Assembly: GCA_004431415.1 (NCBI GenBank)
Contig: QPMI01000043.1
Location: 124,001 to 188,000 of the forward strand
DNA from: Cyanophora paradoxa CCMP329
Lineage: Eukaryota > Plantae > Glaucophyta
DNA length: 64,000 nucleotides
Direction of reading: 5' to 3'
This document shows, piece by piece, positions 11,067 to 53,320 of this stretch; within the stretch, counting starts at the first letter, position 1; each line of letters starts with the position of its first letter. The position numbers and the translations under genes were made by a program. Below the pieces are notes generated by a model. That model did no database searches and was not told where the DNA came from. It saw only the letters and a list, made by a program, of their open reading frames with translations.

Positions 11067-12175
11067 ACACATAGTAAAATGCGGAGTTTTAACCCTCGGC
11101 TTATCTTAATTGATTTTGTTGATATATCTCGTATATTCTATTTCAATCAATCGATAATCTGTGTATATCTTATCGAATATTCATTTATTTCGTTTATTTT
11201 GTATTCTTTTCGATATTTTATCGTAAATTTCTCTTATTTTCCAATTAGTCTTACTGAGTCTATCGATAATCTGTATATATTTCCGAATAATATAACTGAA
11301 TCTCAATTAGATCTTGCCTCTGGTTAAAACTCCGCATTTTACTATGTGTGATTGGTCTGTTTGTTAATTGATTTAATCGATATTATATTCATGTACTTTC
11401 TCGATTAAATTTAATTAAATTTAATTCATTTAATCGGAAATATATCGCTAAACTCGATTAAGATCCATAAATGATTCATTTGTTTATATTAACAAATCGA
11501 TCTCTTATTGAATTCAATCGTAATTATACATGAAACTTATATGATTTTATCATTGTTTTGTTGAGTCTAAGGGGGGACCCTTAGGATTTTGGGTGTGACA
11601 GGTGTGACAGGTGTGACAGGTCAATCCCAAGGAAAGTCCTAGTGAGAAATTGATTTTTAAAATCCACGGGATAAACCTGTCACACCTGTCACACAAACCA
11701 TATTCAGTAAGGACCTCATATATTGTGAAAATCTCAGTGTTAGTTGGTGTTAAATCTTTCAGGCAGCATTTATTTGTCAGGCATTAAATCTATCGATTTT
11801 CATAAAGTATTTTATTTTGGCTAAGTCATTGTTTGGATTAACAATGAAATTTCAATTTTATAAAAGTTTTCTAAAAAGGTGCCTGACAATGCCTGACATA
11901 CTATATTAGTGCCTGACAACTATATTATAGTGCCTGACAAACCATATATGGTAATACTATATGTTATAACCTACTTTCTCAGTGTTAGTTGGTGTAGTTG
12001 ATTCAAATAATGCATTTTATACTCTGATTCATTGTTATTTCCTGTGAAATTTGAGTCAACTCAACCCACTTAGTCAACCCTTGCATTGAATTCGTAACAA
12101 AATCCATATACTATCGATTAATATGAGTCAACCTTGAGTCCACTTTAATAATAGGGGGAATCTTGGGGAGATGCT
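11067..12175 (+). repeat. Left terminal inverted repeat, element 1 (1109 bp)
   Basis: Reverse complement of 38873-39981; one mismatch noticed (~11243). Confidence 0.96.
11593..11694. promoter_or_regulatory. Inverted (GTGTGACAG)n iteron cassette, putative origin (TIR copy; mirror at 39354-39455)
   Basis: 3 direct 9-mers, an AT-rich core and 2 inverted 9-mers; homologous 102-bp copy at 20657-20758. Confidence 0.6.
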
Positions 12176-12191
12176 TATTAGATGCTATTAA

Positions 12192-13577
12192 TTAGCTAGT
12201 TTTGGTCCTTTCTCTTAGTGTTCTTTGAGGTTTAGGGGCTGTATATGACTCCTTAGTAGTCTGAAAGTCATTATACCATCTTTGGCTATTCACTTCTGAA
12301 AGTTTCTGTGTTCCTGCTATAGTGAGCTTTTTGAGTTCCCTGTTAACTTTGCCAGCCTTCTCCTTTCTAGCCTCTATCAAAGGCTTATCTGGGACTTCAT
12401 TAGCAGCTTCTATGCCCTCTCTCCTTATAGAAGCATCAACCCTAGCTTCCTCTTTAGCTTGCTCTAAGGCATCCACTGTAGGGGCTTCCAGATACTCAAC
12501 TGCATTCACAGGCAACAGCTCATGGAAAGCAAACCTGTTATCTATGATCTCTCCAGTGGGACTCTTTAGCTTAAACTTAAAGCCTTCTCTACTATCAACA
12601 GTGTAAACCATCCTAGACCAATTGTTACCCTGTTTAGCAAAGGGGTTCTTCTCTACTTTCACTCTAACAAACATGCCAGGCTGCATGGTATCAAGATAAG
12701 CTATTGATTTCTTGAATCTTTCATCTTCTAATCCTACTATATACCTATAATGCTCCTCTGTAGTTTCACCTGGCTTCATCTTAGTAGCTGAGTGAACTGT
12801 ATTATTGTAATTATACTCAATATCACCTAACACATCAAAGAATCTAGCTGTGTTATTAGCTATGCAGTAGTTTGTGATCAGTCTCTTAATCTGCTTGTTA
12901 AAGGCTTCAATTCGACCTTGGCTTCTATGGTCAGCAGTTCCACTCACTTGGTGTTCTATGAATTTACTAGATAAATACTCCTGGAATATTCGATTTTGGA
13001 ACTCACTCCCAGCATCTGATTGAACTTTTACTATGGGTCTTGCCACTCTCATTTCAAGCTGCTTAAATGCAGCTAATGTAGTGAGAGCTGATTTATCTCT
13101 TATAGGTATAATATACCCAGTTCTTAGTGTGGATTCCATAGCAGTCATAAAGGTATCATAGCCATTGTTTTGTTTCTTATAAGCTGGGAAAAAGAGCAAA
13201 TCAATCACATAGGTATCAAGGGGTTGCCTTATTGGAACCATGGGATCTCTCTTCCTAGATATAGCTGGTGCATTGATCTGAACTACCTCTTGTTTTTTAT
13301 AGAACTCTTGCAACTGCTTATAGGATTCATCTGGTAACTCAGCCCTCATAGCTTGAAGCCCTTTGTAACCAGTTCTCACATCATAGAATCTCTTGGCAAT
13401 CTTGCTGGTTTCTTTCACTGCAATAGCAACTGGGATCTCTACTGGGACAAGCTCTTTCATCTCTGACTTTTTGACAATTCGAGATTCCCCCTTTTCCTCC
13501 TTTGGAACTGTGATGGGCAGTAGGTTACCTTGTAGTTGCTCAGTGGTTCTCCTAACTATTCTTCCAGTTGCTGGCAT
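12192..13577 (-). CDS. Retroviral-type (rve) DDE integrase, Polinton c-INT family
   Basis: YVIDLL / VQSDAGSEF / GRIEAFNKQIK DDE motifs, YNNTVHSATKMKP, SH3-like PGMFVRV..NWS..YTV. Confidence 0.93.
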   Translation of the reverse strand: MPATGRIVRRTTEQLQGNLLPITVPKEEKGESRIVKKSEMKELVPVEIPVAIAVKETSKIAKRFYDVRTGYKGLQAMRAELPDESYKQLQEFYKKQEVVQINAPAISRKRDPMVPIRQPLDTYVIDLLFFPAYKKQNNGYDTFMTAMESTLRTGYIIPIRDKSALTTLAAFKQLEMRVARPIVKVQSDAGSEFQNRIFQEYLSSKFIEHQVSGTADHRSQGRIEAFNKQIKRLITNYCIANNTARFFDVLGDIEYNYNNTVHSATKMKPGETTEEHYRYIVGLEDERFKKSIAYLDTMQPGMFVRVKVEKNPFAKQGNNWSRMVYTVDSREGFKFKLKSPTGEIIDNRFAFHELLPVNAVEYLEAPTVDALEQAKEEARVDASIRREGIEAANEVPDKPLIEARKEKAGKVNRELKKLTIAGTQKLSEVNSQRWYNDFQTTKESYTAPKPQRTLRERTKTS

Positions 13578-13580
13578 CTC

Positions 13581-16821: not shown

Positions 16822-16930
16822 AGTTCCTAACTTGTTCCTACTAAAAGGGGAGGTTTTAAATGGGGAATTCTGAACACAAAATTTGATGAAAACTACTTAA
16901 AGAAATATCTTCTATATATATAAAAGGACA

Positions 16931-17746
16931 ATGGCAGAGAAGAAATCGTATTGCCTGGAAAAGCTCAAAGCGGCTTTAATGTTGCTTTGTGGATCTGATA
17001 ACTTCAATGATTATGTTGCTCTTGGAAGTAACAGGAAACCGCTCCCTCTTTGGGCAAAGCTTGCAAAATATGGATTAAGTGACTATGACCTGCCTCCAGA
17101 GTCTGAGCATTGCGCCTGTGATCATCCAATTAAAGAGCAATGCTATATTCTGCATGTTAATAAAAAGATTGTGGTCATTGTTGGGAATTGCTGCATTTTA
17201 CGATTTATTCCAAAGGGTGCCAGAGGTCAAGATATATGTGAAAGATGTGGAGATCGGCATAAAAACCGAAAGGATAATTTCTGTAATAAGTGCAGGATTA
17301 TCATAAAGGAGGAGGAATTGGAAAGAAAAAAGCAAATCCAGAAAGAAGCAGAGGAGCGAAAGAAACAACTTGAATTAGAAGAAAGAGAGCGAAGGCAGAG
17401 AGAATTAGAACAAGAAAGAGCAAGGAATAGACATGCAGTTAATCTTTTCCTGATTTGGTGCAACCAGTTCATTCCAAAAATGGATAATCTTCGCAGAGAT
17501 GATATAGAGAGGTTCAGAGAGGGTAGATCTGCATTGATTGAAATGTATGCAGAACTCAGTACAACAAACACATTGGTTGCTGGGTTTCAGGTGCCTTTTC
17601 TTAAAAAAGATATCGCAAAAGGATTAGATTGCAGATGGAATAAGGACAAGAAAACATGGGAGACCTTGGAAATCGAACCATTTGTAGCATTGCTAGGTAA
17701 GCATTTCAAACTTATGTATATTGAGAGATTTGGACAGAGAGGTTAA
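16931..17746 (+). CDS. Cys-rich hypothetical protein with coiled coil and C-terminal DUF5710-like motif
   Basis: CACDHPIKEQCYI..VGNCCI motif; VPFLKKDIAKGLDCRWNKDKKTW resembles DUF5710; upstream ACTTAAAG motif. Confidence 0.65.
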   Translation: MAEKKSYCLEKLKAALMLLCGSDNFNDYVALGSNRKPLPLWAKLAKYGLSDYDLPPESEHCACDHPIKEQCYILHVNKKIVVIVGNCCILRFIPKGARGQDICERCGDRHKNRKDNFCNKCRIIIKEEELERKKQIQKEAEERKKQLELEERERRQRELEQERARNRHAVNLFLIWCNQFIPKMDNLRRDDIERFREGRSALIEMYAELSTTNTLVAGFQVPFLKKDIAKGLDCRWNKDKKTWETLEIEPFVALLGKHFKLMYIERFGQRG

Positions 17747-17802
17747 AGAACAAAAAATGATTTAAAGAATTCTCTATATATATTAAGAGAGACAGAGGAA
17801 AA

Positions 17803-18057
17803 ATGCCACTCAGTGAAGCCCAGAAGAGAGCTATGAAGAGGTACCAGCAAACTGAAAAAGGTAAGGCTCAAATCAAAAAGTTTAACGAAAAAATAGCCAC
17901 ACAGCTTAGAGATCTATATCAAACCGATGATACCTATAGAGCCATGAAAATAGCAAGTTCATGTCAGCGAAAGTATGCAGCCAATGCAGTCTGCTTTGTC
18001 AAGTATTTGTATGATGTCCCTTACTCAAACAGAGGGAGAAAATCGAAACATGTCTAA
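17803..18057 (+). CDS. Small basic protein (putative DNA-binding)
   Basis: 84 aa, K/R-rich, upstream AAAAAATGATTTAAAG motif. Confidence 0.6.
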   Translation: MPLSEAQKRAMKRYQQTEKGKAQIKKFNEKIATQLRDLYQTDDTYRAMKIASSCQRKYAANAVCFVKYLYDVPYSNRGRKSKHV

Positions 18058-18269
18058 ATTATTTTTCCCAGCATATTACTAGGCTGGGGATATGCTGTTT
18101 ATTCGCTGAAATACCCATTCATCCTTTTTGTATCTAAACCACTCGATAAGTCGTGTGGAAATATTTCGTAGGGATACTTTCTCGATTTCCAACAAAAAAT
18201 GATTGGGGGACCCAAAACTACTTAAAGAAAAATCTTCTATATATATAAAAGGGACCCCGATCGCTGAAA

Positions 18270-20597
18270 ATGAACGCCAAACAGACCAAGTTAATCAAAT
18301 CGCTCGCTTACTGGCTCAGATCTGATGAGGATCTAGCCAAAAACATGATTATCCCAGTGAAACCTGACAGCAAAGACCCTGTTTTCAAGCATAAGGGAGG
18401 TGCTTGGTCCTGGGAAAAGTATGAAGAAGCGCTGGCAACTAATCAGTATGTATCTTGGGGCATTCTGCTCTCAGACAACATGATGGTTATTGACTTTGAT
18501 GATGAGGAGAACTTTGAGAAATTCCGAGATATGTTTCCTGATGACTTTGATGCCAATCAACCCATGGCAAAAACTAAAAAAGGCTATCATGTCTACTTTA
18601 AACGACCTGAGGAGTTCACTAAACTCAAAATCACCGATAAGGCTCCAGGCTTTAAAGGCTTTGAAAAGGTTGACCTGAAAACAATCACTGGAACTGGAAC
18701 TTCTGGATTGATCAATGTGTGTCCCAGTGTCAACAAGGCTTGGGTGATCTCCCCATGGGATGATACCTGTGATTTCAATGAGCCTACTGATGACTTCAAA
18801 AAGTGGATTATAGATAACTACATCTATAAGAGTGAGTATACTGCTAATGCTACCTCACATGATGAACTGGAAAACAATATTATCAAAGAGCTGGTGGATA
18901 TGGGATTTATGCATCCCAATATAATCTCTAAAACTGAACTTGGCTTTAACTTTGATGCTGCTAACAAGGGACTCAATTGCCCATGCTGCAATGGTTCACA
19001 TGAATCGAATAACTGGTATGTTATGAAAGCTAAAGGAGATGATAACAAATACATTGTGTCAAGCTACAGTGGAAATTGCAAAAAACGATTCATCTGCATT
19101 GGAATGCAATCTGATATCTTCAATCTTATAGATAAATCCGCTGGTTCTGGTGGCGCTCATTATGATGTGAGTTTAGTATGCAAAGAGGTTCTTAAACATA
19201 CATGGAGATACTCCAAAAAGTCATGGTTCAAACTCAATACTGATACTGGGATTTGGGAGCTTGATGACACAAACCTAAAGATTTACCTAGATATAAGCCG
19301 TCTTGTTGTCCCCCAATACCTTGGGAGGGCTGTGCATTATAGTCAAAGAGCTTTAAAGGATGAGGAAAACAAAGCAGCTTTCGAAGAAAGATCCAAAACA
19401 TTGATGACCATTGCCAAAAATCTTAAACAATCAGGATTTCGCAAATCCCTTCTGACTGACTTGGTCCCACTGCTGAATGATGATGAATTCTTTGAGAAGA
19501 TTGACACTGTACCATATGTGATTGGATTCGAAAATGGTGTATTTGATCTGACAACTATGACTTTCAGAAAGGGGAAACTGGAAGATATGGTGAGCAAGAC
19601 TGTGGGTTATGACTATACTGAAAATGTAGACCCCAAGAAAATAGAGCATCTCAATCAGATTTATAAAGAGATTGTGGATGATCCAGCAGAGCGAAAGTAC
19701 CTTCTGGCATCCATTGCAATTGCTCTTAGTGGATCAACTAAATCCCAGAAGTTCTTCATGTGGACTGGTGCTGGTGCTAATGGGAAATCACTTGTTCAGG
19801 AAAACTGCAAACAAATATCTGGTCGTTATTACAGCCCTCTCGAAATATCCTATTGGACTAAGCCTAAAAAGAACTCATCAGAGGCTACTCCTGAACTTGC
19901 CAAACTCCTAGGAAAGCGACTTGTATTCAGTAATGAGGCTGAAGATGGTGATAAACTGCAGATCTCCAAGATTAAGGAGGTCACAGGTGGAAATGAAATG
20001 ACTGTGAGAGCCTTGTTCAAAGACCCAGTTATCCTTACCCCAATGTTTCAGGTCTACATTACAACTAATGACAATTTGACTATAAATAAACCAGACTTTG
20101 CAATTCAAAGAAGACTTTCCTATCAGAGATTCAATAATATATTCAGAGAGAAGCCAGAAGCTGGTCAAAAGAAAGCTGATCCAACTCTGTTCACACTTCT
20201 TCACAATGATGATGAGTATAAGATGGCTCACATGAAGATATTACTGGATATGTGGAAAAACAAAGAGGTTGAAGAGATCTTAAGAAGTCCCCCTCAATCG
20301 ATTATTGAACAGGGAATTAACTTTATAGCTGAAAATGATAAGATTGGTGAATGGCTTCGAGATAATTTCGAGGTTACACATAATGCTAACGACTTTGTTT
20401 CCAGTGATATCATTTACAGATCATACAAAAGTGTTGATGATAAAGTTGAATGTGTATCTGTTATGAAAAGAGTAAGGGAAATCTTCAATGTTAAATCAGA
20501 AAGAAAACGAGTTAATGGTATTCTTGCCAGAGGATATATTGGGATTCGAAAGATAACAAGGGTTCAGGAAGACAATGAAGATGATGCCGAATATTAA
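18270..20597 (+). CDS. Primase-helicase: N-terminal Prim-Pol (bifunctional primase-polymerase), Zn-finger, D5-like SF3 helicase
   Basis: MVIDFDD..KTKKGYHVYF; CPCC..H; IGFENGVFDL; Walker A GAGANGKS, Walker B VFSNE, motif C ITTN. Confidence 0.9.
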   Translation: MNAKQTKLIKSLAYWLRSDEDLAKNMIIPVKPDSKDPVFKHKGGAWSWEKYEEALATNQYVSWGILLSDNMMVIDFDDEENFEKFRDMFPDDFDANQPMAKTKKGYHVYFKRPEEFTKLKITDKAPGFKGFEKVDLKTITGTGTSGLINVCPSVNKAWVISPWDDTCDFNEPTDDFKKWIIDNYIYKSEYTANATSHDELENNIIKELVDMGFMHPNIISKTELGFNFDAANKGLNCPCCNGSHESNNWYVMKAKGDDNKYIVSSYSGNCKKRFICIGMQSDIFNLIDKSAGSGGAHYDVSLVCKEVLKHTWRYSKKSWFKLNTDTGIWELDDTNLKIYLDISRLVVPQYLGRAVHYSQRALKDEENKAAFEERSKTLMTIAKNLKQSGFRKSLLTDLVPLLNDDEFFEKIDTVPYVIGFENGVFDLTTMTFRKGKLEDMVSKTVGYDYTENVDPKKIEHLNQIYKEIVDDPAERKYLLASIAIALSGSTKSQKFFMWTGAGANGKSLVQENCKQISGRYYSPLEISYWTKPKKNSSEATPELAKLLGKRLVFSNEAEDGDKLQISKIKEVTGGNEMTVRALFKDPVILTPMFQVYITTNDNLTINKPDFAIQRRLSYQRFNNIFREKPEAGQKKADPTLFTLLHNDDEYKMAHMKILLDMWKNKEVEEILRSPPQSIIEQGINFIAENDKIGEWLRDNFEVTHNANDFVSSDIIYRSYKSVDDKVECVSVMKRVREIFNVKSERKRVNGILARGYIGIRKITRVQEDNEDDAEY

Positions 20598-20656
20598 AGA
20601 AAACGATTAATGATTGAGATTTACATATATTTTTATAGCCTTACTGAAAATGGTTT

Positions 20657-20758
20657 GTGTGACAGGTGTGACAGGTCCATCCCAAGGAAAGCCCTGGTGA
20701 AAAGTTGATTTTCAAAATCGATGGGATAGACCTGTCACACCTGTCACACCTGTCACAC
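20657..20758. promoter_or_regulatory. Inverted (GTGTGACAG)n iteron cassette immediately 3' of the helicase gene (putative cognate origin)
   Basis: 2 direct plus 3 inverted 9-mers around an AT-rich core, 60 bp after the stop codon; homologous to the TIR cassette. Confidence 0.65.
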
Positions 20759-20826
20759 CTATCGAAAATGACCAAAATTTGACAAGAATACTTAAGGCTT
20801 ACTTGATTGTGTATAGTGAAGACAAA

Positions 20827-21048
20827 ATGGCAAAGACTCTTGATGAGATGACCATGACTGAGTTAGATAAATGCATAAAGCATGGAGATATAGGGGCATA
20901 TATCGAAATGTCACAGAGATTGATAGGTTACAATATGTATGCAGCTAAACCAAAGAGAAATAGATCAGTAAACATTCACATTACTGTTTCAGTGTCTGAG
21001 AATGCAAACAAAAAACAACAAAAGCATATTTACAAAACTTATCTGTGA
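20827..21048 (+). CDS. Small hypothetical protein
   Basis: ATG at 20827 preceded by an ACTTAAGG motif; element-1 specific. Confidence 0.45.
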   Translation: MAKTLDEMTMTELDKCIKHGDIGAYIEMSQRLIGYNMYAAKPKRNRSVNIHITVSVSENANKKQQKHIYKTYL

Positions 21049-21135
21049 CTTGATTGCAAGTATAAAGCCAATTCCTTTGTATATATTTTTATAGCTGCCT
21101 CAGTGGCATACTGAGACCGCTTTTTCTCAATTATC

Positions 21136-21637: not shown

Positions 21638-21659
21638 ATCTCTAATAAAACAGAGATAA

Positions 21660-23264: not shown

Positions 23265-24206
23265 TTACAGGTTAGATAAGAATCGTTTAATGCAACCCTC
23301 TATATCTGTTTCAGTATATGGGATTCTTAGGAGTAATATGTTGTTGGCTTCACAGTATCTAGTTTTAATAGCATCATTTAGTTTTCGTTTCTCAAAATCC
23401 TGTTCCCCTCCAAAGTATTCAACAGGTTCAAAGTGTTGTTTTCCATCATATTCAATAGCTATTTTCAATGCAGGCATATAGAAATCGAAAGGGAGAACTC
23501 TTAGAGCCTTGCAGTCCTTGAAAGCATACTCTCTTTCGTACTCTAAGCCAATATTATTGAGGATGGAAGCAATTGCATTCTCTCCTTTAGAAGCTTTGCA
23601 AGCAATGCAGCCACTTCCCATTAAATGTACTCTTGCTTCCTGTTGGAATTCATTCAAGCAAATGTTGCATTTCAATTTGACGATACTAAACTTGTTTTTA
23701 TATTCAACTTGACTATAATCATACTTGTCTCTATGGATGCTCTTTGCTTTTGAGATGAATTCCAAAGTATTGCTCCTCAATTTTGCACCCTTTTCCTGAT
23801 GACCACATTTTCGACAACCTCGACCTCTAAGATGTGAATATGGCTCTTGCTGAAACACATTTCCACAACTCTTACATGTGATTGCTACCTTCACTTTCGC
23901 ATTTTTGTAATTTTGCTTTACCTGTGAATAATCGTACTTGTCACCATGAATTACTTGAGCTTCTTCTATGAACTTCTCGACTGGCTTTACAAATAGGTTA
24001 TGGTAGAGATCACTTTTGCAACTCTTACAACCTCCATTACCCTTTAGATGGTGGTGAGGTAAAGATGTGAAATCTTTCTGGCAAGTGTTACAGGTAACTG
24101 TTAAAACTGTTTTTGCATTTTTGTATTCTGTTTTCGCATACCCAAATTTGTCTCCATACTTACCCTTGCTTCGCTCAATGAAATCTGAAGTTGTAAGAGG
24201 CAGCAT
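23265..24206 (-). CDS. Putative homing-type endonuclease: three Zn-ribbon (DUF723-like) repeats plus C-terminal PD-(D/E)XK/Vsr-like nuclease
   Basis: Repeats FI..A..IHGDKYDYS.V.YKN...V...C..C...F.Q....HL.G.GC..C; LPFDFY..IAIEYDGKQH. Confidence 0.8.
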   Translation of the reverse strand: MLPLTTSDFIERSKGKYGDKFGYAKTEYKNAKTVLTVTCNTCQKDFTSLPHHHLKGNGGCKSCKSDLYHNLFVKPVEKFIEEAQVIHGDKYDYSQVKQNYKNAKVKVAITCKSCGNVFQQEPYSHLRGRGCRKCGHQEKGAKLRSNTLEFISKAKSIHRDKYDYSQVEYKNKFSIVKLKCNICLNEFQQEARVHLMGSGCIACKASKGENAIASILNNIGLEYEREYAFKDCKALRVLPFDFYMPALKIAIEYDGKQHFEPVEYFGGEQDFEKRKLNDAIKTRYCEANNILLLRIPYTETDIEGCIKRFLSNL

Positions 24207-38872: not shown

Positions 38873-39981
38873 AGCATCTCCCCAAGATTCCCCCTATTAT
38901 TAAAGTGGACTCAAGGTTGACTCATATTAATCGATAGTATATGGATTTTGTTACGAATTCAATGCAAGGGTTGACTAAGTGGGTTGAGTTGACTCAAATT
39001 TCACAGGAAATAACAATGAATCAGAGTATAAAATGCATTATTTGAATCAACTACACCAACTAACACTGAGAAAGTAGGTTATAACATATAGTATTACCAT
39101 ATATGGTTTGTCAGGCACTATAATATAGTTGTCAGGCACTAATATAGTATGTCAGGCATTGTCAGGCACCTTTTTAGAAAACTTTTATAAAATTGAAATT
39201 TCATTGTTAATCCAAACAATGACTTAGCCAAAATAAAATACTTTATGAAAATCGATAGATTTAATGCCTGACAAATAAATGCTGCCTGAAAGATTTAACA
39301 CCAACTAACACTGAGATTTTCACAATATATGAGGTCCTTACTGAATATGGTTTGTGTGACAGGTGTGACAGGTTTATCCCGTGGATTTTAAAAATCAATT
39401 TCTCACTAGGACTTTCCTTGGGATTGACCTGTCACACCTGTCACACCTGTCACACCCAAAATCCTAAGGGTCCCCCCTTAGACTCAACAAAACAATGATA
39501 AAATCATATAAGTTTCATGTATAATTACGATTGAATTCAATAAGAGATCGATTTGTTAATATAAACAAATGAATCATTTATGGATCTTAATCGAGTTTAG
39601 CGATATATTTCCGATTAAATGAATTAAATTTAATTAAATTTAATCGAGAAAGTACATGAATATAATATCGATTAAATCAATTAACAAACAGACCAATCAC
39701 ACATAGTAAAATGCGGAGTTTTAACCAGAGGCAAGATCTAATTGAGATTCAGTTATATTATTCGGAAATATATACAGATTATCGATAGACTCAGTAAGAC
39801 TAATCGGAAAATAAGAGAAATTTACGATAAAATATCGAAAAGAATACAAAATAAACGAAATAAATGAATATTCGATAAGATATACACAGATTATCGATTG
39901 ATTGAAATAGAATATACGAGATATATCAACAAAATCAATTAAGATAAGCCGAGGGTTAAAACTCCGCATTTTACTATGTGT
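38873..39981 (-). repeat. Right terminal inverted repeat, element 1
   Basis: Reverse complement of 11067-12175. Confidence 0.96.
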
Positions 39982-43810: not shown

Positions 43811-44778
43811 GTAATCTAAAGATTTCCCTTTGAATCTCAAATGAAGTAATATTCATCGGCCTAGATAAAGCACATGCCTGGCATTGGGGACCCCTGGATT
43901 GCGACTTTTGGAGTCTCTGCAGAAACATTTGCACATGATGTTCACACAGGTGCAGGCCGTTTATAACAGCTAACCGGCCATTCCATTCATTTCTATATAT
44001 ATTTCTTAATGCTCAGTGCAGAGTATGTAACGGTTCAGCCATATCGCATACAGCTGATTCAGACCTCGTGGCTATTGGACAATCGTGCGCACACATACAT
44101 ATGTTATTGAGTCCGTTCCGCTAATCCTTATAATCTCTGCGAAATGCACTTGCAGTTTGCGAAATGCGAGAGCGCAATACACATATGAATATTCATATTT
44201 TAATCCCTCGGCGTTCCGCCTCAGGATTAAAATATGAATATTCATATGTGTGATTCGATGTTATATCAATAAAATCGATTAATTTATTTGAATTTTCACC
44301 TGAATTTTCATATTTTTATATGCATTTTCAATTAATTTAATCGATGTTATATCGATAAACTCGATTAATCGATATTGTATCTTAATTGTAGTTAATCGGA
44401 ATTATATCAATAACTTCGATTGATCTTAATTGAATCCTAAATGAATCTAATCGGAATTATATCAATAAATTCGATTAAATCATGTTCTTTTCCGATTAAA
44501 TCAATTAAATATTTAACTTTGTTATCAGAAGTGGTCTAAGTTGACTCACTTTTCATAAACATTTTGAACTCTTAGTCTCTTTGAATTTCTTAAGATGACT
44601 CAACTTAGTCAACTTAGTCAACTTTGTTACCATAATCAATCAGGGTGGACTCACTTTTAGATCAACTTTGAAATTTCAAGCAAAATCAACTTGGATTTCA
44701 AAAGTGGATCTTCTAAGTGGACTCAAAATGTTCACTTTGTGATACATGTTAGCTCAAATCCTTACTGTTTATGGTCAG

Positions 44779-44964
44779 GGTTGACTAAGTGGGGGAGTTG
44801 ACACATTTTTTGAAATCCTTTTTAGAAAACTTTAGGTCCCAAATATTTCCTGTGAAATTTGAGTCAACTCAACCCACTTAGTCAACCCTTGCATTGAATT
44901 CGTAACAAAATCCATATACTATTACTACTTTTACGATTAATATGAGTCAACCTTGAGTCCACTT
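44779..44964. promoter_or_regulatory. Inverted GTTGAC/GTCAAC iteron cassette in the element 2 terminal region (putative origin)
   Basis: ggttgactaagtgggggagttgac..AT core..gtcaactcaacccacttagtcaacc; homologue at 50536-50716. Confidence 0.6.
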
Positions 44965-45491
44965 AAATATAAATATAATATAATAGGGGGAATCAAGGGA
45001 GATGCTTACTAAATGCAGTGTTAGATTGATGATTTCACATATGTAATCACGATTATCTCTAAAGTAGATTTGGGTTGATTATTCGATGTTATCAGGTGAT
45101 TGAGTTGATAAGTATTTGATGTAGATCTTTAACTCTTTCGTTATAATCGAATTTAATCGAATTAGTTTTGAATTTTCAAAATCGGTTTAATCGTAATAGC
45201 GATGTATACACATCGAGATTCGTAGATGTGATTGCAATTTATTGTTATGTATGATATTGGTGATTATATTGAATCGTTGGTGTATCGATTTGATAACTTC
45301 CTGGTGATCTGTATTAAAAACTCACGTTTAATGGATTTTAATCGAATTTAAAATCAAAATTCAAAATCGAGTGACCGCCTTAAAATGCTCGATTTTATGA
45401 CGTTTTAAGCGCATCGATTTGAGCATGTGGTGTTGAGATATCGTAGCAAACGTGAATAGTGAGTTTCTAGACGGGTACAGCATTAATCTAG

Positions 45492-45616
45492 AAAAAACCG
45501 CGTTTTTTTTTACTTTTCAAGTTTCACGGCGAACGAAGTAAAGGTTCCCGGTCGGATTTGAACCTCGTAGTTCTGGGTCAGTAATCTAGCGCTTTATTCT
45601 CTGAGCCAAAAACGGC
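45492..45616 (-). ncRNA. tRNA-like / SINE-like Pol III unit
   Basis: Minus strand: A-box-like TGGCTCAGAGAATA, B-box GGTTCAAATCC at tRNA spacing, then an A-run and a TTTTTT terminator; cloverleaf degenerate. Confidence 0.45.
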
Positions 45617-45841
45617 TTGCCATCTAGTCGACTCCTGGGCTAGTGTTTCACCAAGTCTACTATGGCAAGTGACTTTTGCATCTTCAAACTGTTATATCTC
45701 ATCACCAGATCATCAAAACGCAACGTTCTGCATATCGCTGTGAAGCGCTTGATAAGATCTACAAGACTATGTGTATATCATGTGCATATATGTATATCAG
45801 TCATACATATATTTGGAAAAAACGAGTTTTTGCCTAGCAAA

Positions 45842-47227
45842 CTAGCTAGTTTTGGTCCTTTCTCTTAGTGTTCTCTGAGGTTTAGGGGCTGTATATGACT
45901 CCTTAGTAGTCTGAAAGTCATTATACCATCTCTGGCTATTAACCTCAGAAAGTTTCTGTGTCCCTGCTATAGTGAGCTTTTTGAGTTCCCTATTAACCTT
46001 GCCAGTCTTCTCCTTTCTAGCCTCTATCAAAGGCTTATCTGGGACTTCATTAGCAGCTTCTATGCCTTCTCTCCTTATAGCAGCATCAACCTTGGCTTCC
46101 TCTTTGGCTTGCTCTAATGCATCCACTGTAGGTGTTTCCAGATACTCAACTGAATTCACAGGTAACAGCTCATGGAAAGCAAACCTGTTTTCTATGATCT
46201 CACCAGTGGGACTCCTTAGCTTAAACTTAAAGCCTTCCCTACTATCAACAGTGTAAACCATCCTAGACCAATTGTTACCCTGTTTAGCAAAGGCATTTTT
46301 CTCAACTTTCACTCTAACAAACATGCCTGGCTGCATGGTATCAAGGTAAGCTATTGATTTCTTGAATCTTTCATCTTCTAATCCCACTATATACCTATAA
46401 TGCTCCTCTGTAGTTTCGCCTGGCTTCATCTTAGTAGCTGAGTGAACTGTATTATTGTAATTATACTCAATATCACCTAACACATCAAAGAATCTAGCTG
46501 TGTTATTAGCTATGCAGTAGTTTGTGATCAGTCTCTTAATCTGCTTGTTAAAGGCTTCAATTCGACCTTGGCTTCTATGGTCAGCAGTTCCACTCACTTG
46601 GTGTTCTATGAATTTACTAGATAAATACTCCTGGAATATTCGATTTTGGAACTCACTCCCAGCATCTGATTGAACTTTTACTATGGGTCTTGCCACTCTC
46701 ATTTCAAGCTGCTTAAATGCAGCTAATGTAGTGAGAGCTGATTTATCTCTTATAGGTATGATATATCCAGTTCTCAGTGTTGATTCCATAGCAGTCATAA
46801 AGGTATCATAGCCATTGTTTTGTTTCTTATAAGCTGGGAAAAAGAGCAAATCAATCACATAGGTATCAAGGGGTTGCCTTATTGGAACCATGGGATCTCT
46901 CTTCCTAGATATAGCAGGTGCATTGATCTGAACTACCTCTTGTTTTTTATAGAACTCTTGCAACTGCTTATAGGATTCATCTGGTAACTCAGCCCTCATA
47001 GCTTGAAGCCCTTTGTAACCAGTTCTCACATCATAGAATCTCTTGGCAATCTTGCTAGTTTCTTTCACTGCAATAGCAACTGGGATCTCTACTGGGACAA
47101 GCTCTTTCATCTCTGATTTTTTAACAATTCGAGATTCCCCCTTTTCCTCCTTTGGAACTGTGATGGGCAATAGGTTACCTTGCAGTTGCTCAGTGGTTCT
47201 TCTAACTATTCTTCCAGTTGCTGGCAT
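45842..47227 (-). CDS. rve DDE integrase (element 2)
   Basis: 461 aa, near-identical to 12192-13577. Confidence 0.93.
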   Translation of the reverse strand: MPATGRIVRRTTEQLQGNLLPITVPKEEKGESRIVKKSEMKELVPVEIPVAIAVKETSKIAKRFYDVRTGYKGLQAMRAELPDESYKQLQEFYKKQEVVQINAPAISRKRDPMVPIRQPLDTYVIDLLFFPAYKKQNNGYDTFMTAMESTLRTGYIIPIRDKSALTTLAAFKQLEMRVARPIVKVQSDAGSEFQNRIFQEYLSSKFIEHQVSGTADHRSQGRIEAFNKQIKRLITNYCIANNTARFFDVLGDIEYNYNNTVHSATKMKPGETTEEHYRYIVGLEDERFKKSIAYLDTMQPGMFVRVKVEKNAFAKQGNNWSRMVYTVDSREGFKFKLRSPTGEIIENRFAFHELLPVNSVEYLETPTVDALEQAKEEAKVDAAIRREGIEAANEVPDKPLIEARKEKTGKVNRELKKLTIAGTQKLSEVNSQRWYNDFQTTKESYTAPKPQRTLRERTKTS

Positions 47228-47230
47228 CTC

Positions 47231-50200
47231 TTAATTAAAAGGAACAGAATTAATACCATCTGGTAAGATGTATCTCTTTGCATCAAAGCAGTTCAGGGCA
47301 ACCCTTCTACTCACAGTATCTATTATTGTGTGATCTGCCCTTCTCTTCTGCTTTGCAGTCACAGTCTTGCTGATACCTGCAAATAAACACTGCTTAAAAT
47401 CATTAAATTGGAGTTCCTCAGTGGAAGACCCAGAGAGCTTACTTCTCTCAATCTCAGCAGTTCTGAAACTGTAAACTTTGGCTCTTAGACCCACATACTC
47501 CAATATAGCAGAACCTGGCATCTCATTTTTGTATTTACCTGGGGTCATTCTGTTAGGTCCTCCTAAGTCCAGATTAAAGGATATATTCTCTAGGTCCTTT
47601 TGGAGGGTCTGAGATTCGATATATAGACAAAAGGAATCAGTATCATGGAATAGTAACTTTGCTTTTGACCATTGGGACCTTATAGTATCATAGAAGAACT
47701 GGTAATTATGCAGTTTGGCTGCATCCAAAACATAAGCCCCAATTGCAACAGGCTTATCTAGTTTCACATGCTTTGTGTAAAACTCAAAGGCAACTGCTTT
47801 TTCGTTTATGGGGCTTGTTGATTTCACCAATGGGGAAGCTGCATATTTCATAAATAGCTTCTCAGTATTTGCAATCTTTACCACAGATCTACCTCTGCAG
47901 GATTCAATGCATTTCCCATAGATTGAGTTATTCATGAGCTTGTAGAAATCAGCCTCGAATTTATTCAATGCTTTTCTTCTCATCTCAGTGTTCAGTACAA
48001 TATAAGATTTCATTACAGGAGCCACAGTAAATGATAGGACCCTGTGGACTTTTCTCAATTTCACCCCTTTGCCCAACAGGTATTGCAGAAGAGGCTCAGA
48101 AATCACATAGTTTGTCACAGAACCAAAGGTTGCAGTTAGCTTTGGGGTTTTATCAAGCTCTTCTCCTGAGAGATCTAATAGGCTCTTTTGATATTGTGAT
48201 AATTCCGCATATTCTACTATTTTCTTGTTAATAATTAGGGGGAAATCACTGTGATCTAGATACAGCCTTATTGGGTATTCCAGATCAACTTCTAGGAAAC
48301 TGGATCTGTTATCTTGTGGGTTGAATTCGGTCTCCCATCTAAAATCACCAACTGGAATTGGCTGACTCAAACAGTAGCCATACAAGTTGTTAGCATCAAA
48401 CAGCATAATGTGGGAGTTTTCACCATCAGCCTCAGCATACCTGCAAGGCATTGTTGCAAAGCCACCCCTGATTCCCCTCTCAACAAATTCGTATTGCTCT
48501 ACATCACTTATAAGCTCTATTTTTGCCTTGGTGGTCCTTAACATAGCATCCCAAGATAGCCCAGGTGCAGATACATAATGAACTGGGTCAAGTCCATATA
48601 CTGAGTGTGAGAGCCTTCTGAAAGCTTGGAATTTGCTCATTAACTCATTCACATCAGCAGCCCCAAAGTCCATGAAATTACTTGCATCAATGAACTTGTA
48701 AAGACCCCATTGCAATGAAAGGTATTGATCAAAGTTTTTTGAGAGGATTTCGATTCGTTTTTTATCTCCCAAACCTGCTATTTTTCTGAAAATGAATGAC
48801 CCACAGTCATCCATTTGGTCAACAACCACTGCTACTTTGGTTTGCTTTGAGATTCTCCTATGGAGATTGCAGTTTCTGCAAGCAGGAGCAATGTACTGAC
48901 CTGTGTGGTGATCATGATCTCTGCATTTAAAGTTCTCCTTAGTGAATCTCTCACTGCAAAGGTAACAGTTTTTGGTAGCTCTGTAAATTGCTTTCTGCTC
49001 ATCTGTGAGTTCATTCATAGGAATATTGGTGAACAGGAAATCGATTAGTTCTCTTGCTTTGGACTCCAAGCATTCAAACAGACCTCCCATTGGATCCTGC
49101 CCCTCAAATCGAAAATCTTGAACATCTTCCCCAGTGACTACTCTAAGGTTGACTGCTGAAACTTCCCTCTTGGATTTCGATGCATCAATGGGGATGCTTC
49201 TATGTTCAATCTTGCAGTAGACCACAACAGGAAGCCAAACAGTTTTCCTGAGGTTTTTCAGTCCAAACTCTATGGTGGTTTCAGGTTTAGGGGTGATTCC
49301 CTTTGAGAGTCTCCAGTCAATGCATCTATTTGAGTCCACATGAGCAGTGAGTTTAGCCTCAGACCTGAATCGAGATAAGCATGTGTCACAGTAGTGTAAC
49401 TTCTGATCATTGTATGTTTCATGATTTACTTTCAATAATCTTGAAAGGGACATGATTGTAATATAATGACCATTCCCTTCATCATCAAATATCAGCATGA
49501 GATTAACCTTATGCTTTCTGCCTGGGTTACTGGATTGATGCAGGGGATAAATAACCTCTCCATCGATTCCAAATATATTAATGCTAATGCCTGCATTTTG
49601 AGCCTCGAATTTATCAATAATCTCAGCATCACAGGCAACAGGGAATGGGATGTTATCGAAATTCAGAGCCAGCGGATTATAAGCGATTGCTGAGTATTTC
49701 CATTTGCGATATTGTGAAAGCTCATTCCTCTTATGGGAGTTTATCGCTTTTCTGTGAATATATGCCAAAATTGCATTTTCGAAGCAGGAATCATCTATAT
49801 TTCGAATATTCACTGTGGCTCTCTTCCTAGCAATCCACTCTGGGGTTTGTAGAAAGCATCCACCAGTTGGAGCATAACTCATAATAGCCACTCTGAGTAT
49901 TTCGATTCTTTCCAAGCGATAGCTATCAACCACATTCATCTGCTCTTGACACATTTGGGCTGCTTTATTCAGCTCAGTTCGAATATTTCTCGACCTGGTT
50001 AATACAAAATAATCACTGTAAATGTATTTCGATATCCAAACCTGTGGATTGCTCACTTTTACGAACTTGCAGATAAAAGACAAGCGAACCTTGATTGCCC
50101 TGAATTGATCTAAACCCTGCTTTAATCGATTAGGAAGGGATGTAGCAATTCTGTCCAGGAATTCAATCACATCTACAACAACTTCCCTTCTGGCTCTGTA

Positions 50201-50476
50201 AGTGAGCCAGCGATATAATTCATTCATGGCTGTTCCATCTTCTGCCTCAGGTTCTATTTGCCTTAGGCGATCCAGTTCATCCAAGGTTTCAATTTTATCA
50301 TATAGGTTATTTGCTTTTCTGGTTAATCTGGCTAAAGTGGGTCTACCCTTTGCAATTAAATCTATTTCCCGGTCATATTCAGCCTCTGTTATTTCATGGG
50401 CTGCATAAAGTGTTCCCAGCAATCCCATGAGTTCCCATTTCTTCTCCCTTATGAGTTTGTTGGAAATTCGGGGCAT
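47231..50476 (-). CDS. Protein-primed DNA polymerase B, intact ORF (1081 aa)
   Basis: DANNLYG, KLMNNSIYGK, HDTDS, GLRAKVYS. Confidence 0.94.
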   Translation of the reverse strand: MPRISNKLIREKKWELMGLLGTLYAAHEITEAEYDREIDLIAKGRPTLARLTRKANNLYDKIETLDELDRLRQIEPEAEDGTAMNELYRWLTYRARREVVVDVIEFLDRIATSLPNRLKQGLDQFRAIKVRLSFICKFVKVSNPQVWISKYIYSDYFVLTRSRNIRTELNKAAQMCQEQMNVVDSYRLERIEILRVAIMSYAPTGGCFLQTPEWIARKRATVNIRNIDDSCFENAILAYIHRKAINSHKRNELSQYRKWKYSAIAYNPLALNFDNIPFPVACDAEIIDKFEAQNAGISINIFGIDGEVIYPLHQSSNPGRKHKVNLMLIFDDEGNGHYITIMSLSRLLKVNHETYNDQKLHYCDTCLSRFRSEAKLTAHVDSNRCIDWRLSKGITPKPETTIEFGLKNLRKTVWLPVVVYCKIEHRSIPIDASKSKREVSAVNLRVVTGEDVQDFRFEGQDPMGGLFECLESKARELIDFLFTNIPMNELTDEQKAIYRATKNCYLCSERFTKENFKCRDHDHHTGQYIAPACRNCNLHRRISKQTKVAVVVDQMDDCGSFIFRKIAGLGDKKRIEILSKNFDQYLSLQWGLYKFIDASNFMDFGAADVNELMSKFQAFRRLSHSVYGLDPVHYVSAPGLSWDAMLRTTKAKIELISDVEQYEFVERGIRGGFATMPCRYAEADGENSHIMLFDANNLYGYCLSQPIPVGDFRWETEFNPQDNRSSFLEVDLEYPIRLYLDHSDFPLIINKKIVEYAELSQYQKSLLDLSGEELDKTPKLTATFGSVTNYVISEPLLQYLLGKGVKLRKVHRVLSFTVAPVMKSYIVLNTEMRRKALNKFEADFYKLMNNSIYGKCIESCRGRSVVKIANTEKLFMKYAASPLVKSTSPINEKAVAFEFYTKHVKLDKPVAIGAYVLDAAKLHNYQFFYDTIRSQWSKAKLLFHDTDSFCLYIESQTLQKDLENISFNLDLGGPNRMTPGKYKNEMPGSAILEYVGLRAKVYSFRTAEIERSKLSGSSTEELQFNDFKQCLFAGISKTVTAKQKRRADHTIIDTVSRRVALNCFDAKRYILPDGINSVPFN

Positions 50477-50535
50477 TATTCCTAACTTGTTCCTATTCTA
50501 AGGGGATATTGTATTTTAGAGCATTTTAAACGCAA

Positions 50536-50716
50536 GTGGACTTAGTGGGTGGAGTTGAGGCACTTTTTATTTCTTTTTAGGGCAGAGTCCTCTTTCAGAA
50601 TCTGTGAAAAAATGAGTCAACTCCCCCCACTTAGTCAACCTAATCGATAAATAAACCATAAATAAAAGACTGTTTGGGTCTTTTATGATAAATTTGAGTC
50701 AACCATGAGTCCACTT
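50536..50716. promoter_or_regulatory. GTCAAC-type iteron cassette immediately 3' of the element 2 helicase gene
   Basis: gtggacttagtgggtggagttga..core..gagtcaactccccccacttagtcaacc..tgagtcaaccatgagtccactt; ends ~10 bp from the helicase stop. Confidence 0.65.
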
Positions 50717-50726
50717 TTGAGTAAAC

Positions 50727-53320
50727 CTAAACTTCAACATCAGAATCATAATCTGATGCATCAGGATCAGCAGCAGGTAGGTCTTGTTTCATCCTTGGAT
50801 TAGCTTCTTCCTCAATGGTCTCATCATCTACAAGCTTCATCTTTCTGAATTCCTCAAATACTTGTGGGAATAGGAAATGATAGTATTGCTTACCATTTGT
50901 AGTTTTCACTTGGATATATGTCACACTTCTCATTTCAGTATAATACCTGCGACTATTATAATCGTTTTTATATTTATTGCTGGTAATGAACTCCTGGAAC
51001 CATTTCCAGGTTTCCACAAGGCTACCAGACTTGCATTTATTCTCGGAAATTAAGCCTCGATCCACAAGCCACTTAGTGAACATAAGGATGATTGGAGCGC
51101 ACACCTGTTGGGCTAAATAGTATTTATTTGTAAGGGGTCTATCAGCAATCCAGTTCACATCCTCACAGTCAACTTTGGTTCTCAAATAGTGGGCAATGTT
51201 TCGAATATTGCAGTGATCATTTAGCCATTTTACAAGTGGAAGGAAGTATGACCTATCCTTTGCGAATTTCTTACTAACTTCAACAACCACAAATCGCCTA
51301 TCTCCAGCTTCAATTTTCACTGGAATGTTATTATTGCTGGTAAATATAATCCTGGCAAAGTTGCTTTTTGTGTATGAATCTATCCCTTTGTGTTCAATAA
51401 CAATCTTATCAGAAGTAATGAGATCTTTGAGCATATCATTATTTTCGAATGTGTCCTTGCCTGAGGCTTCATTCACAACAATCAAGATCTTATCCTCTCT
51501 ATTGTGGGCAAATCGACCAAACAGATCCTCTTTTGGCTTTCCAGTTGCATAACTCAGGGCATCTCCAAGTATCTTCTTTTGGAAAGTATCAACCAACACA
51601 TTCTTACCAGTTCCCTGTTCACCAATGAAGATTAAGGATACTCCATTGAGTTCCCCAGGCTTTTGCAGCATGTGGGCAAACCATTTCAATAGATATTCAT
51701 AGGTATTTTGATCCTCACCAGACATTAAGAACAAGTGATCTAGGAAAGGCTTAATCATCTCAGCAGTTACATCCTCTGGAGCATTTTCGAATTGCTGATG
51801 GTCGACCTTCATTCCTGGATAGAGATTAAATACAGACTTGCATTTTGCACTGAGAGTAGCAGGAGGGGGAAGGAAATCCATGTAAGTTGATCTTGTGGCT
51901 GTTGGATCCACAATCCATTTCCTAAATGATTGCTCCCATTTCTCTTTCTCATTATCTGTTCCCTCATTGACAATCACCTTATGCATCAAATGGGGAAATG
52001 CTTTGTAGAGAGCTTCCCAATATCTTTGGGCATCCAGCAAAGTAGTTGTTCATCCCAGAGCATCACACAACCAACATTTTCAACATGATGCATTCGAGCA
52101 TTGAAATACCTCTTATGCACATTGTAATGTTCAGCCAAAGGAGGGATACTTGCAGTCTTGTAATCGATTTCATCTGTGTCCTCTGGTAGGAATGCATACT
52201 TTTTGGGGAAGAGTTCCTTGAAAAGCTCATTGTTATCTTTGCTCAACCAATAAACCAAGGATTTGAAGGTCAACACTTTGCCAGGCTCAGCCTTCTTCTT
52301 GCTTCTGCGAAGCTGTGTAAACTTCTCCTGGCATTCATCATAATCATACTTGTCACTCTGTTCTGAGAATTGGTGGAAGAGTTCAGCTTGCATTTTAGGG
52401 GTGAACTTGTTGTCTTCCCCAACATTGATGATGACCAGTCCTACATCAATCCAAGTTTTATACTCATTAGCTCTCTCACCATTCAGACCCATTATAACAC
52501 TTTGTAGCAGTTCGAAAGTAACAGGATTGTCGGGTTCAGTGTCTTTTTCAGCTTCTACCTTCTCAGTCTTCACTTTATCACTTTTTGGCTCCTTTTTAAC
52601 TGGTTTTGGCTCAGGGCTATAATTTGCGAATGCAGAAATATTCGATTCATCCACAAGTTTAGTAGAAGCTGAGAAGAAAGATACAAAGAAGTCCTCATTT
52701 CGCATTAACACTTTGTCACAGTCAACGAATTTCTTAAAGCAAACGTTTTTATCAACATCTTTCTTTGATTTATTTTGAGCATCCAGAGTCTCACCTTTGC
52801 AGCAATTGAGGCAGATAAGGTTCTGTGTGGAGCTGTAAACTCCACTGTCATAATCCTCATTTTTCACCAATCCCATAGCTTTGAAAAGCTTGGGGATATC
52901 TTCATGTTTGCATGCAAGCGATTTAATGATAAAGTGGGCTGAGATCTTGAACTTGGTGACATCCTCCTTGATCAAATAAACCCTTCTATGGCGAACTGCA
53001 ACAGCAATATCGTTAATCGAAGTGGTCCCAGATCGCTTCCATAGCTTATCTCTCATCTCTCTTACAACAGTTTCAGCCTCAGCATAGTTATCAGCAATAT
53101 TCTCCTTCAAATCAGCGAATTTATCCAGGTCCAGGTAAACTCTGGTCACTTGTTCAGGCTGAATGCATTCAGCCCAGGTCTTGACCTTGCTATTATCAAT
53201 TGCTTCAAGGGCATCTTCAGCAGAATCAAATACATGGGTGACCTTGTTGCGATCACCAATGAGAGTACTAAGGAATGTAGCATTTTCAACAGGGGTGGCG
53301 AATTTCTCGATTTTGTTCAT
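50727..53320 (-). CDS. Primase-helicase type 2: AEP primase, PriCT-2 and DUF5906/SF3 helicase (one homopolymer frameshift at ~51990)
   Basis: RVYLDLD..ISAHF..YDSGVYS; EYKTWIDVG..FSEQSDKYD; FNLYPG, WFAHMLQKPG, GEQGTGKN, VVNEA, IFTSN, DRRF. Confidence 0.88.

What the first reader, a model, noticed from the sequence alone, without database searches (positions are those of the whole stretch)
11593..53320. Swappable 'primase-helicase + cognate iteron origin' modules, with the origin copied into the termini (SaPI Rep-ori-like system in a Polinton-like virus)
Seen: element 1's Prim-Pol/D5 helicase (18270-20597) is followed 60 bp downstream by a 102-bp cassette of inverted GTGTGACAG repeats around an AT-rich core (20657-20758). 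The same cassette sits in both TIRs (11593-11694, 39354-39455). Element 2 has a different helicase (AEP/PriCT-2/DUF5906, 50727-53320), followed immediately by a cassette of the same design with different iterons (GTTGAC/GTCAAC, 50536-50716). That cassette is the one in element 2's terminal region (44779-44964); I saw no GTGTGACAG arrays in the sequenced part of element 2. Established: staphylococcal SaPI D5-family Rep helicases use an ori just 3' of rep, made of inverted iteron sets flanking an AT-rich region, with Rep-ori specificity. Inference: these viruses replicate with exchangeable helicase-ori pairs whose ori is duplicated into the TIRs, alongside the canonical protein-primed scheme. 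I do not know of this being described for Polintons/PLVs.
Basis: partly seen in the sequence, partly recalled or inferred. Interest (0 to 1): 0.9.

Follow-up and report, generated by a model that had tools for sequence, protein, structure and literature searches.

The report
Stacked helicase origins in Polinton ends
Two related integrated DNA viruses carry different primase-helicase genes, each followed by its own block of mirrored short repeats that recurs in the virus ends, where one virus stacks three different blocks; these are likely start sites for DNA copying, predicted to be read by the helicase tail, which would give a testable answer to how such viruses begin replication.

Summary
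The cassettes are real, but "cognate only" is wrong. Element 1's TIRs hold its own cassette (A), a third iteron set (B) whose helicase is not in the window, and half of element 2's cassette (C). A's core is not AT-rich.

The origin reading has good comparative support:
- The A design lies just 3' of primase/helicase genes in 14 of 28 viral cassette types.
- Low-GC relatives of helicase 2 (mostly PLV/virophage-like) have an inverted-iteron cassette directly 3' in 50 of 96 clusters. Controls: 15 of 482 other gene ends, 2 of 53 mostly giant-virus D5 genes.
- The iteron word tracks the winged-helix wing (best of 128 windows; signal lost at 50% dereplication).
- 7 of 60 carry a second copy of their own cassette; no TIR pair was shown there.
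- The pPolB lacks exonuclease motifs.

Best reading: SaPI/P4-type helicase-origin modules swapped between elements, with TIR copies as loading sites. Binding and initiation are untested. Barth 2024 proposed inverted repeats as PLV origins, and this scan noted PLV origin candidates on other DNA. I found neither the iteron-wing code nor stacked TIR cassettes in print.

The parts
11067..12175 (+). Element 1 left TIR (begins ACAC; 6-bp target duplication at 11061-11066 and 39982-39987)
11593..11694 (.). Cassette A, left TIR copy (3+2 inverted 9-bp iterons, 57-bp core)
11733..11750 (+). 18-bp linker, repeated at 11978-11995, bounding cassette B as a module
   Evidence: junction variants
11758..11938 (.). 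Cassette B (GTCAGGCA/TGCCTGAC, 80% AT spacer); no matching helicase in the window
12036..12146 (.). Inner half of cassette C (element-2 type) at the inner end of element 1's TIR
12192..13577 (-). rve integrase, element 1
   Evidence: rve, E 2.6e-4, below curated cut-off; similar to integrases of L001-L004
13580..16822 (-). pPolB of element 1, reading frame broken in this sequence (approximate limits)
16852..21069 (+). Swapped block of element 1: ORF271, small basic ORF, helicase 1, cassette A
18270..20597 (+). Helicase 1: Prim-Pol, D5_N, DUF5906, C-terminal RFX/P4-type winged helix (about 20277-20594)
20657..20758 (.). Cassette A, internal copy, 59 nt after the helicase-1 stop; core inverted relative to arms and flank compared with the TIR copy
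   Evidence: bridged by run contigs
38873..39981 (-). Element 1 right TIR, with half-C (about 38902-39012), B (39110-39290) and A (39354-39455)
44179..45016 (+). Element 2 left terminal region (begins ACAC); outer C-like sets at 44538-44625 and 44643-44725
   Evidence: right end outside the window
44778..44964 (.). Cassette C, terminal copy in element 2 (three arms)
45842..47227 (-). rve integrase, element 2
47231..50476 (-). pPolB of element 2: polymerase motifs intact, exonuclease motifs lost
50534..50716 (.). Cassette C, internal copy, 10 nt after the helicase-2 stop; arms kept, spacers diverged from the terminal copy
50727..53320 (-). Helicase 2 in two frames: PriCT-2 part (51986-53320); DUF5906 plus winged-helix-like tail (50727-51986)
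50507..54356 (-). Swapped block of element 2

Best explanation
Each element carries its own primase-helicase gene with a block of mirrored short repeats beside it and again in its ends; the blocks are likely replication origins that the helicase is predicted to recognise with its winged-helix tail, and the end copies would load it near the termini. Shown: the anatomy, the swap of gene plus cassette between two 85-93% identical elements, the fold of the helicase-1 tail, the recurrence of the layout in relatives, the co-variation of word and wing, and the loss of exonuclease motifs in pPolB. Inferred by analogy with SaPI PriRep5: one hexamer per arm binds through the wing hairpin, self-loads and melts the neighbouring DNA. 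Inferred: the copy next to the gene keeps word and wing linked during swaps, while the copies roughly 0.5-0.8 kb inside the ends open them and unwind ahead of the exonuclease-less pPolB, or start replication of the integrated copy. Inferred: after a swap a new cassette enters the TIR as a linker-bounded module and older ones remain (B, half of C), so the TIR is a stack rather than a cognate-only site. My odds: about 0.85 that the cassettes are sites of the adjacent helicase, about 0.6 that the TIR copies are used in replication.
For: (1) The A design lies within -200..+450 nt of the 3' end of a primase/helicase gene in 14 of 28 distinct cassette types from 43 viral contigs. (2) Helicase-2 relatives have an inverted-iteron cassette directly 3' in 31 of 76 loci vs 11 of 550 other gene ends. 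After dereplication: 39 of 108 with a strict detector; 50 of 96 low-GC clusters plus 10 with a 5' cassette with a looser one, vs 15 of 482 controls; mostly giant-virus D5 genes 2 of 53. 22 of 31 cassette-positive loci of 9 kb or more encode an A32 ATPase. (3) The helicase-1 tail model (pLDDT 86) matches RFX DNA-binding domains (Z 10.6, 10.1; rmsd 2.6, 2.1) and the phage P4 origin-binding domain (Z 6.2, rank 3); the helicase-2 tail profile is homologous (hhalign 96.9%). (4) The wing window is the best of 128 for predicting the word after removing overall similarity (partial r 0.21; permutation p 0.0005). It holds at 80% and 60% dereplication and for pairs with cassettes on opposite sides of the gene (r 0.15, p 0.015). 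L087 has a core 99% identical to L085 but the wing and word of L088. (5) Between the two C copies the arms are kept while one spacer is at shuffle level and the other marginal, as expected if both copies are under selection. (6) A second copy of the own cassette in 7 of 60 loci. (7) pPolB has lost exonuclease motifs that L001-L004 keep, fitting the helicase-gain pattern in PMC11071308. (8) SaPI layout and wing read-out: PMC9371898 (passages), bioRxiv 10.64898/2026.10.17.759575 (introduction, first results section).
Against: No binding, melting or initiation data. The A core is not AT-rich. The same GTGACAG word sits beside unrelated replicase families and dissimilar wings, and 14 of 28 types have no helicase end next to them. 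36 of 96 low-GC clusters and 12 of 12 high-GC clusters show no adjacent cassette. The wing correlation is modest, a second window scores 0.18, and the signal vanishes at 50% dereplication (n=11, p 0.40); permutations do not fully remove relatedness. L087 can be one conversion tract, because wing and cassette are neighbours. 53 of 60 loci show no second copy (many are short), and no TIR pair was shown in any relative. Half-C in element 1 lacks an arm. Helicase 2 is frameshifted and its single-sequence tail model is poor (pLDDT 51.5). The C pattern found no helicase-linked match among 27 viral hits.
Confidence: 0.68

Rival explanations
1. The cassette next to the gene is an origin, but the TIR copies are passive: recombination or conversion placed them there, TIR homogenisation copied them to both ends, and the stack is a scar of past swaps. 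Termini are used only for protein priming and integration.
For: Half-C is incomplete and B has no partner in the window. Run contigs show TIR junction variants (11750 to 11676 in 3 of 4 runs; 11744 to 11989 in 1 of 4, weak). 53 of 60 relatives show no second copy.
Against: Arms are conserved while spacers drift between the two C copies. Both elements have their own word in the end. Second copies recur in 7 loci with six different words.
Confidence: 0.17
2. The helicase is a selfish mobile module flanked by its own binding sites that invades TIRs (model of Barth et al. 2024); the cassettes are mobilisation or homing ends rather than origins of the whole virus.
For: In L224, L152 and L135 inverted copies flank the helicase region. 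Gene and cassette swap as a block. PMC11296320 section 9 describes repeat-flanked helicases and a repeat shared by the Gezel-14T TIR and the end of its module.
Against: In element 2 the two copies enclose integrase and pPolB, and the helicase lies outside. No nicking or recombinase domain was found in the swapped blocks. The single 3' cassette is the common state.
Confidence: 0.09
3. The repeats are transcriptional operators or sites for another protein, such as a host RFX-type factor or the small basic ORFs.
For: The tail is RFX-like; 10 relatives have the cassette 5' of the gene, where an operator would sit.
Against: Most cassettes are 3' of the gene. The word varies with the helicase wing, which a fixed host factor would not explain. 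The same design follows primase-helicases of phages.
Confidence: 0.06

Closest known systems
SaPI Rep/PriRep-ori module (SaPI5 PriRep5, SaPI1 Rep1)
   Same: SF3 primase-helicase with a C-terminal winged helix; iterons immediately downstream of the gene; at least two per side in opposite orientation; word differs between helicases (PMC9371898 passages; bioRxiv 10.64898/2026.10.17.759575).
   Different: Eukaryotic linear integrated virus with pPolB and rve integrase; 5 rather than 6-12 iterons in A; A core not AT-rich; extra copies in both termini, stacked with foreign words; no biochemical test.
Phage P4 alpha protein with ori1 and crr
   Same: D5-family primase-helicase; the tail matches the P4 origin-binding domain 1ka8 (Z 6.2). 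Two separate cis sites with one iteron word is recalled, not found in the library.
   Different: Here the second and third sites are in TIRs of a linear genome and are whole inverted cassettes.
PLV end-module hypothesis and Gezel-14T direct repeat (Barth et al. 2024, PMC11296320)
   Same: Inverted repeats proposed as origin for the primase-helicase; a >300-bp repeat in the TIR and downstream of the module; replicon turnover.
   Different: In the sections and passages I read, no iterons, no word-wing link and no multi-word TIR stack; there the primase-helicase replaces pPolB, here the two coexist. The Gezel-14T sequence could not be checked.
Mavirus and low-GC EMALEs (pPolB, rve integrase, separate SF3 primase/helicase)
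   Same: Same gene trio, non-homologous helicase replacement (PMC8547959 passages), exonuclease loss with helicase gain (PMC11071308 passages).
   Different: Unrelated capsid lineage (only 2 clusters found, nearest named one from Cyanophora paradoxa); no origin mentioned in the passages read.

Membership tests
SaPI/PICI-type Rep-ori module | SF3 (or MCM) helicase, with or without fused primase | tested here: met
   Prim-Pol, D5_N, DUF5906 (helicase 1); PriCT-2, DUF5906 (helicase 2)
SaPI/PICI-type Rep-ori module | C-terminal winged-helix origin-binding domain | tested here: met
   for helicase 1; helicase 2 by profile homology only, own model poor
SaPI/PICI-type Rep-ori module | At least two iterons on each side, opposed, immediately 3' of the gene | tested here: met
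   C is degenerate
SaPI/PICI-type Rep-ori module | AT-rich region between the iteron sets | tested here: inconclusive
   A core 56-63% vs 61% background (not met); B 80%, C 67-78% (met)
SaPI/PICI-type Rep-ori module | Sequence-specific binding, melting and initiation by the cognate helicase | not testable with these tools
   only co-variation
SaPI/PICI (the element family) | Bacterial phage satellite with tyrosine integrase and helper-phage packaging | tested here: not met
   rve integrase, pPolB, A32 ATPase, TIRs, 6-bp duplication
Polinton / PLV with pPolB and rve integrase | TIRs and 5-6-bp target duplication | tested here: met
   (element 1); element 2's right end is outside the window
Polinton / PLV with pPolB and rve integrase | pPolB, rve integrase, A32 packaging ATPase | tested here: met
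   (rve below curated cut-off)
Polinton / PLV with pPolB and rve integrase | [quoted passage not shown] | tested here: inconclusive
   candidate 24318-25684 has no Pfam hit and two relatives; fold not predicted; assigned by position and size
Polinton / PLV with pPolB and rve integrase | Functional protein priming (terminal-protein domain) | not tested
   N-terminal region is shorter than in L001-L004; not modelled

The most novel reading that the evidence does not exclude
The TIRs of this virus family are a growing keyring of origins: linker-bounded cassettes for successive or co-resident helicases are added to the ends and partly kept, so one element can be opened and replicated in trans by several helicase types in the same nucleus. 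Across PLVs and virophages a short wing-to-iteron code sets replicon compatibility, as in plasmid incompatibility groups.
Probability: 0.3. Interest if true: 0.82.

Novelty: new variant of a known kind. Interest (0 to 1): 0.64.

Why it matters
[quoted passage not shown] The result names concrete sites of 100-200 bp, the domain predicted to read them, and natural specificity variants, so simple binding and wing-swap assays can settle it. It extends the phage-satellite self-loading helicase origin to eukaryotic small DNA viruses. It offers a reason why replication modules turn over as blocks, and suggests that a pPolB without proofreading domain is helped at the ends by a sequence-specific helicase. 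If the stacked TIR cassettes are used in trans, co-resident proviruses would share or compete for replication proteins.

Tried and rejected
- No host genome is held, so other family members could not be read; three relatives' whole records are not held.
- pPolB as query gave only 4 distant elements, with no helicase match and no clear cassette in the fetched parts. Helicase 1 alone gave no locus. The capsid alignment gave none.
- The C DNA pattern gave 27 chance-like hits, none near a helicase-profile hit.
- B patterns in prokaryote genomes: 1 hit with no helicase and 0 hits. A looser core gave 5 hits: 3 Kitasatospora loci 68 nt after a DUF3987 gene and 2 of another repeat type. This is one family, so weak support. 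The exact A cassette gave 0.
- The single-sequence model of the helicase-2 tail was too poor for a fold search; its profile gave only E 0.8 to the P4 domain.
- Summed contig depth over the helicase-1 block was lower than over the core, but the tool warns this is no copy number; used only as a hint.
- Rejected: 'cognate only' TIRs; 'AT-rich core' for A; a general 'newest cassette outermost' rule (fits element 1, not element 2, where the best match to the internal copy is innermost).
- Detector errors were left in the counts: one microsatellite call (L232), one wrong cassette (L216), one wrong gene end (L131). Element 2's word was entered by hand.
- The 'YR-like' profile was built from these same loci and has no Pfam support.
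- Literature: ten searches showed no paper on iterons in Polintons, PLVs or virophages. The library lacks most subscription papers and no supplements were read; the supplements of PMC11296320 list repeats and may bear on novelty.
Full report
OBSERVATION. The window holds one complete integrated element (E1, 11067-39981; 1109-bp TIRs, 6-bp target duplication) and the left part of a second (E2, from about 44179). They are 85-93% identical except for one block next to pPolB (E1 16852-21069; E2 50507-54356). Each block has a different primase-helicase. The host was not established; the flanks are GC-rich and the nearest named capsid relative is from the alga Cyanophora paradoxa. Contigs from two independent runs bridge the helicase-1 end and the cassette, so this is not an assembly artefact. 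Cassette C lies 10 nt after the helicase-2 stop and again in E2's end (131 of 189 identical).

E1's TIRs are a stack. From outside in they hold A; an 18-bp linker; a third inverted set B; the same linker; and the inner half of E2's cassette C. B has no internal copy in E1 and is absent from the sequenced part of E2. Run contigs show junction variants at the linker: half of A after the linker in 3 of 4 runs, B skipped in 1 of 4 (weak), and a B start after the second linker in 1 of 4. Two contigs of 955 and 1610 nt begin with B's right arm and continue into other sequence. That fits an internal B copy beside a third helicase, but I could not read those contigs. The A core is inverted relative to arms and flank between the TIR and internal copies, and it is not AT-rich (56-63% vs 61%). 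Helicase 2 is split by a frameshift; whether that is real or a sequencing error is open.

IS IT A HELICASE ORIGIN? A DNA search for the A design gave 43 viral contigs, 28 distinct cassette types, 14 of them at the 3' end of a primase or helicase gene (D5, VapE, Toprim, Prim-Pol). Relatives of helicase 2 were then fetched without regard to repeats. In the first set 31 of 76 usable loci (4 of 80 dropped as truncated) had an inverted-iteron cassette right after the stop, against 11 of 550 other gene ends. In the full set (168 usable of 186 loci; 108 clusters at 95%) a strict detector found 39 of 108: 39 of 96 below 45% GC, 0 of 12 above, with 47 cassettes elsewhere in 1.16 Mb. A looser detector found 50 of 96, plus 10 with the cassette just 5' of the gene, against 15 of 482 controls. 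Mostly giant-virus D5 relatives of helicase 1 gave 2 of 53 clusters (73 usable of 78 loci). Of 31 cassette-positive loci of 9 kb or more, 22 encode an A32 ATPase, and one has a Sputnik-type minor capsid. The layout is therefore common in PLV- and virophage-like genomes, each lineage with its own word, usually at 9-bp period.

WHO READS IT? The helicase-1 tail folds as a winged helix closest to RFX DNA-binding domains and then the phage P4 origin-binding domain. The helicase-2 family tail is homologous. SaPI5 PriRep5 reads iterons with the wing hairpin (bioRxiv 10.64898/2026.10.17.759575; abstract, introduction and first results section read). Across 59 helicases, the wing was the best of 128 sliding windows for predicting the word once overall similarity was removed (r 0.21, permutation p 0.0005; next independent peak 0.18). 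The result holds at 80% (n=41) and 60% (n=22) dereplication and for 5'-versus-3' pairs, where wing and cassette are not neighbours (p 0.015). It is lost at 50% (n=11, p 0.40). L087 is a natural swap: core 99% like L085, wing 25%, but wing 100% and word like L088 (core 75%). A single conversion tract could also produce it. On the phage side the same GTGACAG word accompanies dissimilar wings, so the code is not one-to-one.

THE TERMINAL COPIES. Seven of 60 cassette-positive loci have a second copy of their own cassette. In five a copy lies within about 700 nt of a contig end; one follows an rve integrase gene. Contig ends need not be virus ends, and no TIR pair was shown. Inside the window, the two C copies keep their arms while the spacers drift to or near shuffle level, which argues for selection on both. 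E2's pPolB keeps its polymerase motifs but has lost the exonuclease motifs and about 100 residues that four helicase-less relatives retain. This matches the pattern of exonuclease loss with helicase gain in PMC11071308 (passages).

MECHANISM. Most likely the helicase binds both arms through its wing, self-loads and melts nearby DNA, as in SaPIs (PMC9371898, passages); this step is inferred. The gene-adjacent copy keeps wing and word together in swaps. The TIR copies would load the helicase near each end, to assist strand displacement by pPolB or to start copying the integrated provirus. After a swap the TIR gains the new cassette as a module and keeps older ones, as relics or for use in trans. 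Confidence 0.68 overall. Rivals: passive TIR copies (0.17), selfish mobile helicase (0.09), operator or other protein (0.06).

PRIOR KNOWLEDGE. Barth et al. 2024 (PMC11296320; passages, section 8 and the first part of section 9 read) propose PLV inverted repeats as primase-helicase origins, note a repeat shared by the Gezel-14T TIR and the end of its module, and model helicase invasion of TIRs. Helicase replacement is known in EMALEs (PMC8547959) and PLVs (PMC4642659, PMC12220804, 10.1101/2025.10.09.676808; passages only). Ten searches found no report of iterons, a wing code or stacked cassettes in these viruses; supplements were not read. P4 ori1/crr is recalled. Earlier notes of this scan flagged origin candidates beside PLV-type helicases in other genomes and word-wing co-variation in phages; my tests came before that look-up.

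VERDICT. It works like a SaPI/P4 helicase-origin module but is not a SaPI: a new variant of a known kind in a eukaryotic virus, with a stacked multi-word TIR as its most unusual feature. Interest 0.64.

Noticed in passing
window 11711(-), 20640, 39337, 44761; L054-L056, L058-L060, L086: A motif CTTAC-N3-5-(T/A)ATGGT flanks all three A copies and E2's terminal C copy, and lies next to cassettes with other words in several relatives (7 hits near helicase ends, 6 elsewhere); possible primase start or shared conversion handle.
   Followed up: partly
window 11067-11349 and 44179-44251: Both elements repeat their terminal sequence in inverted form a short way inside (28 bp at 11322-11349; a 73-bp near-palindrome in E2), so each end could fold back.
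   Followed up: no
window 16889-16927, 18214-18252, 53384-53430: A shared promoter-like motif (ACTACTTAA ... TATATATAAAAG) precedes ORF271, helicase 1 and helicase 2.
   Followed up: no
window 45540-45620: tRNA-like or SINE-like sequence between E2's terminal region and integrase, absent from E1 (seen).
   Followed up: no
window 29299-35865 and about 38340-38640: 2188-aa fibre with an S74 chaperone domain and 24-aa repeats; a short ORF that by eye resembles SAM decarboxylase near the right TIR.
   Followed up: no
window 23265-24206 and about 56280-56950: Zinc-ribbon repeat, endonuclease-like gene between ATPase and capsid gene; run contigs show a joint skipping it and low depth, so it is probably a mobile insert.
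   Followed up: no
L228 3973-16153; L063 1841-12018: PLV-like contigs with four and three dispersed copies of one cassette type and none directly 3' of the helicase.
   Followed up: no
L223 1-1588 vs 19089-20524: Two related units in tandem; the cassette is present at the first junction and absent at the second.
   Followed up: partly
L007 family (13 loci), about 10001-10260: A phage group with the GTGACAG cassette about 200 nt after an AAA_30 helicase-like gene and about 4.8-5 kb from its DUF5906 protein.
   Followed up: no
window 1-720, 2500-6100, 10087-10304: Host side: by eye an ArsA/GET3-like gene with short GC-rich introns, a 142-bp tandem array (24 copies) and a long (TA)n run.
   Followed up: no
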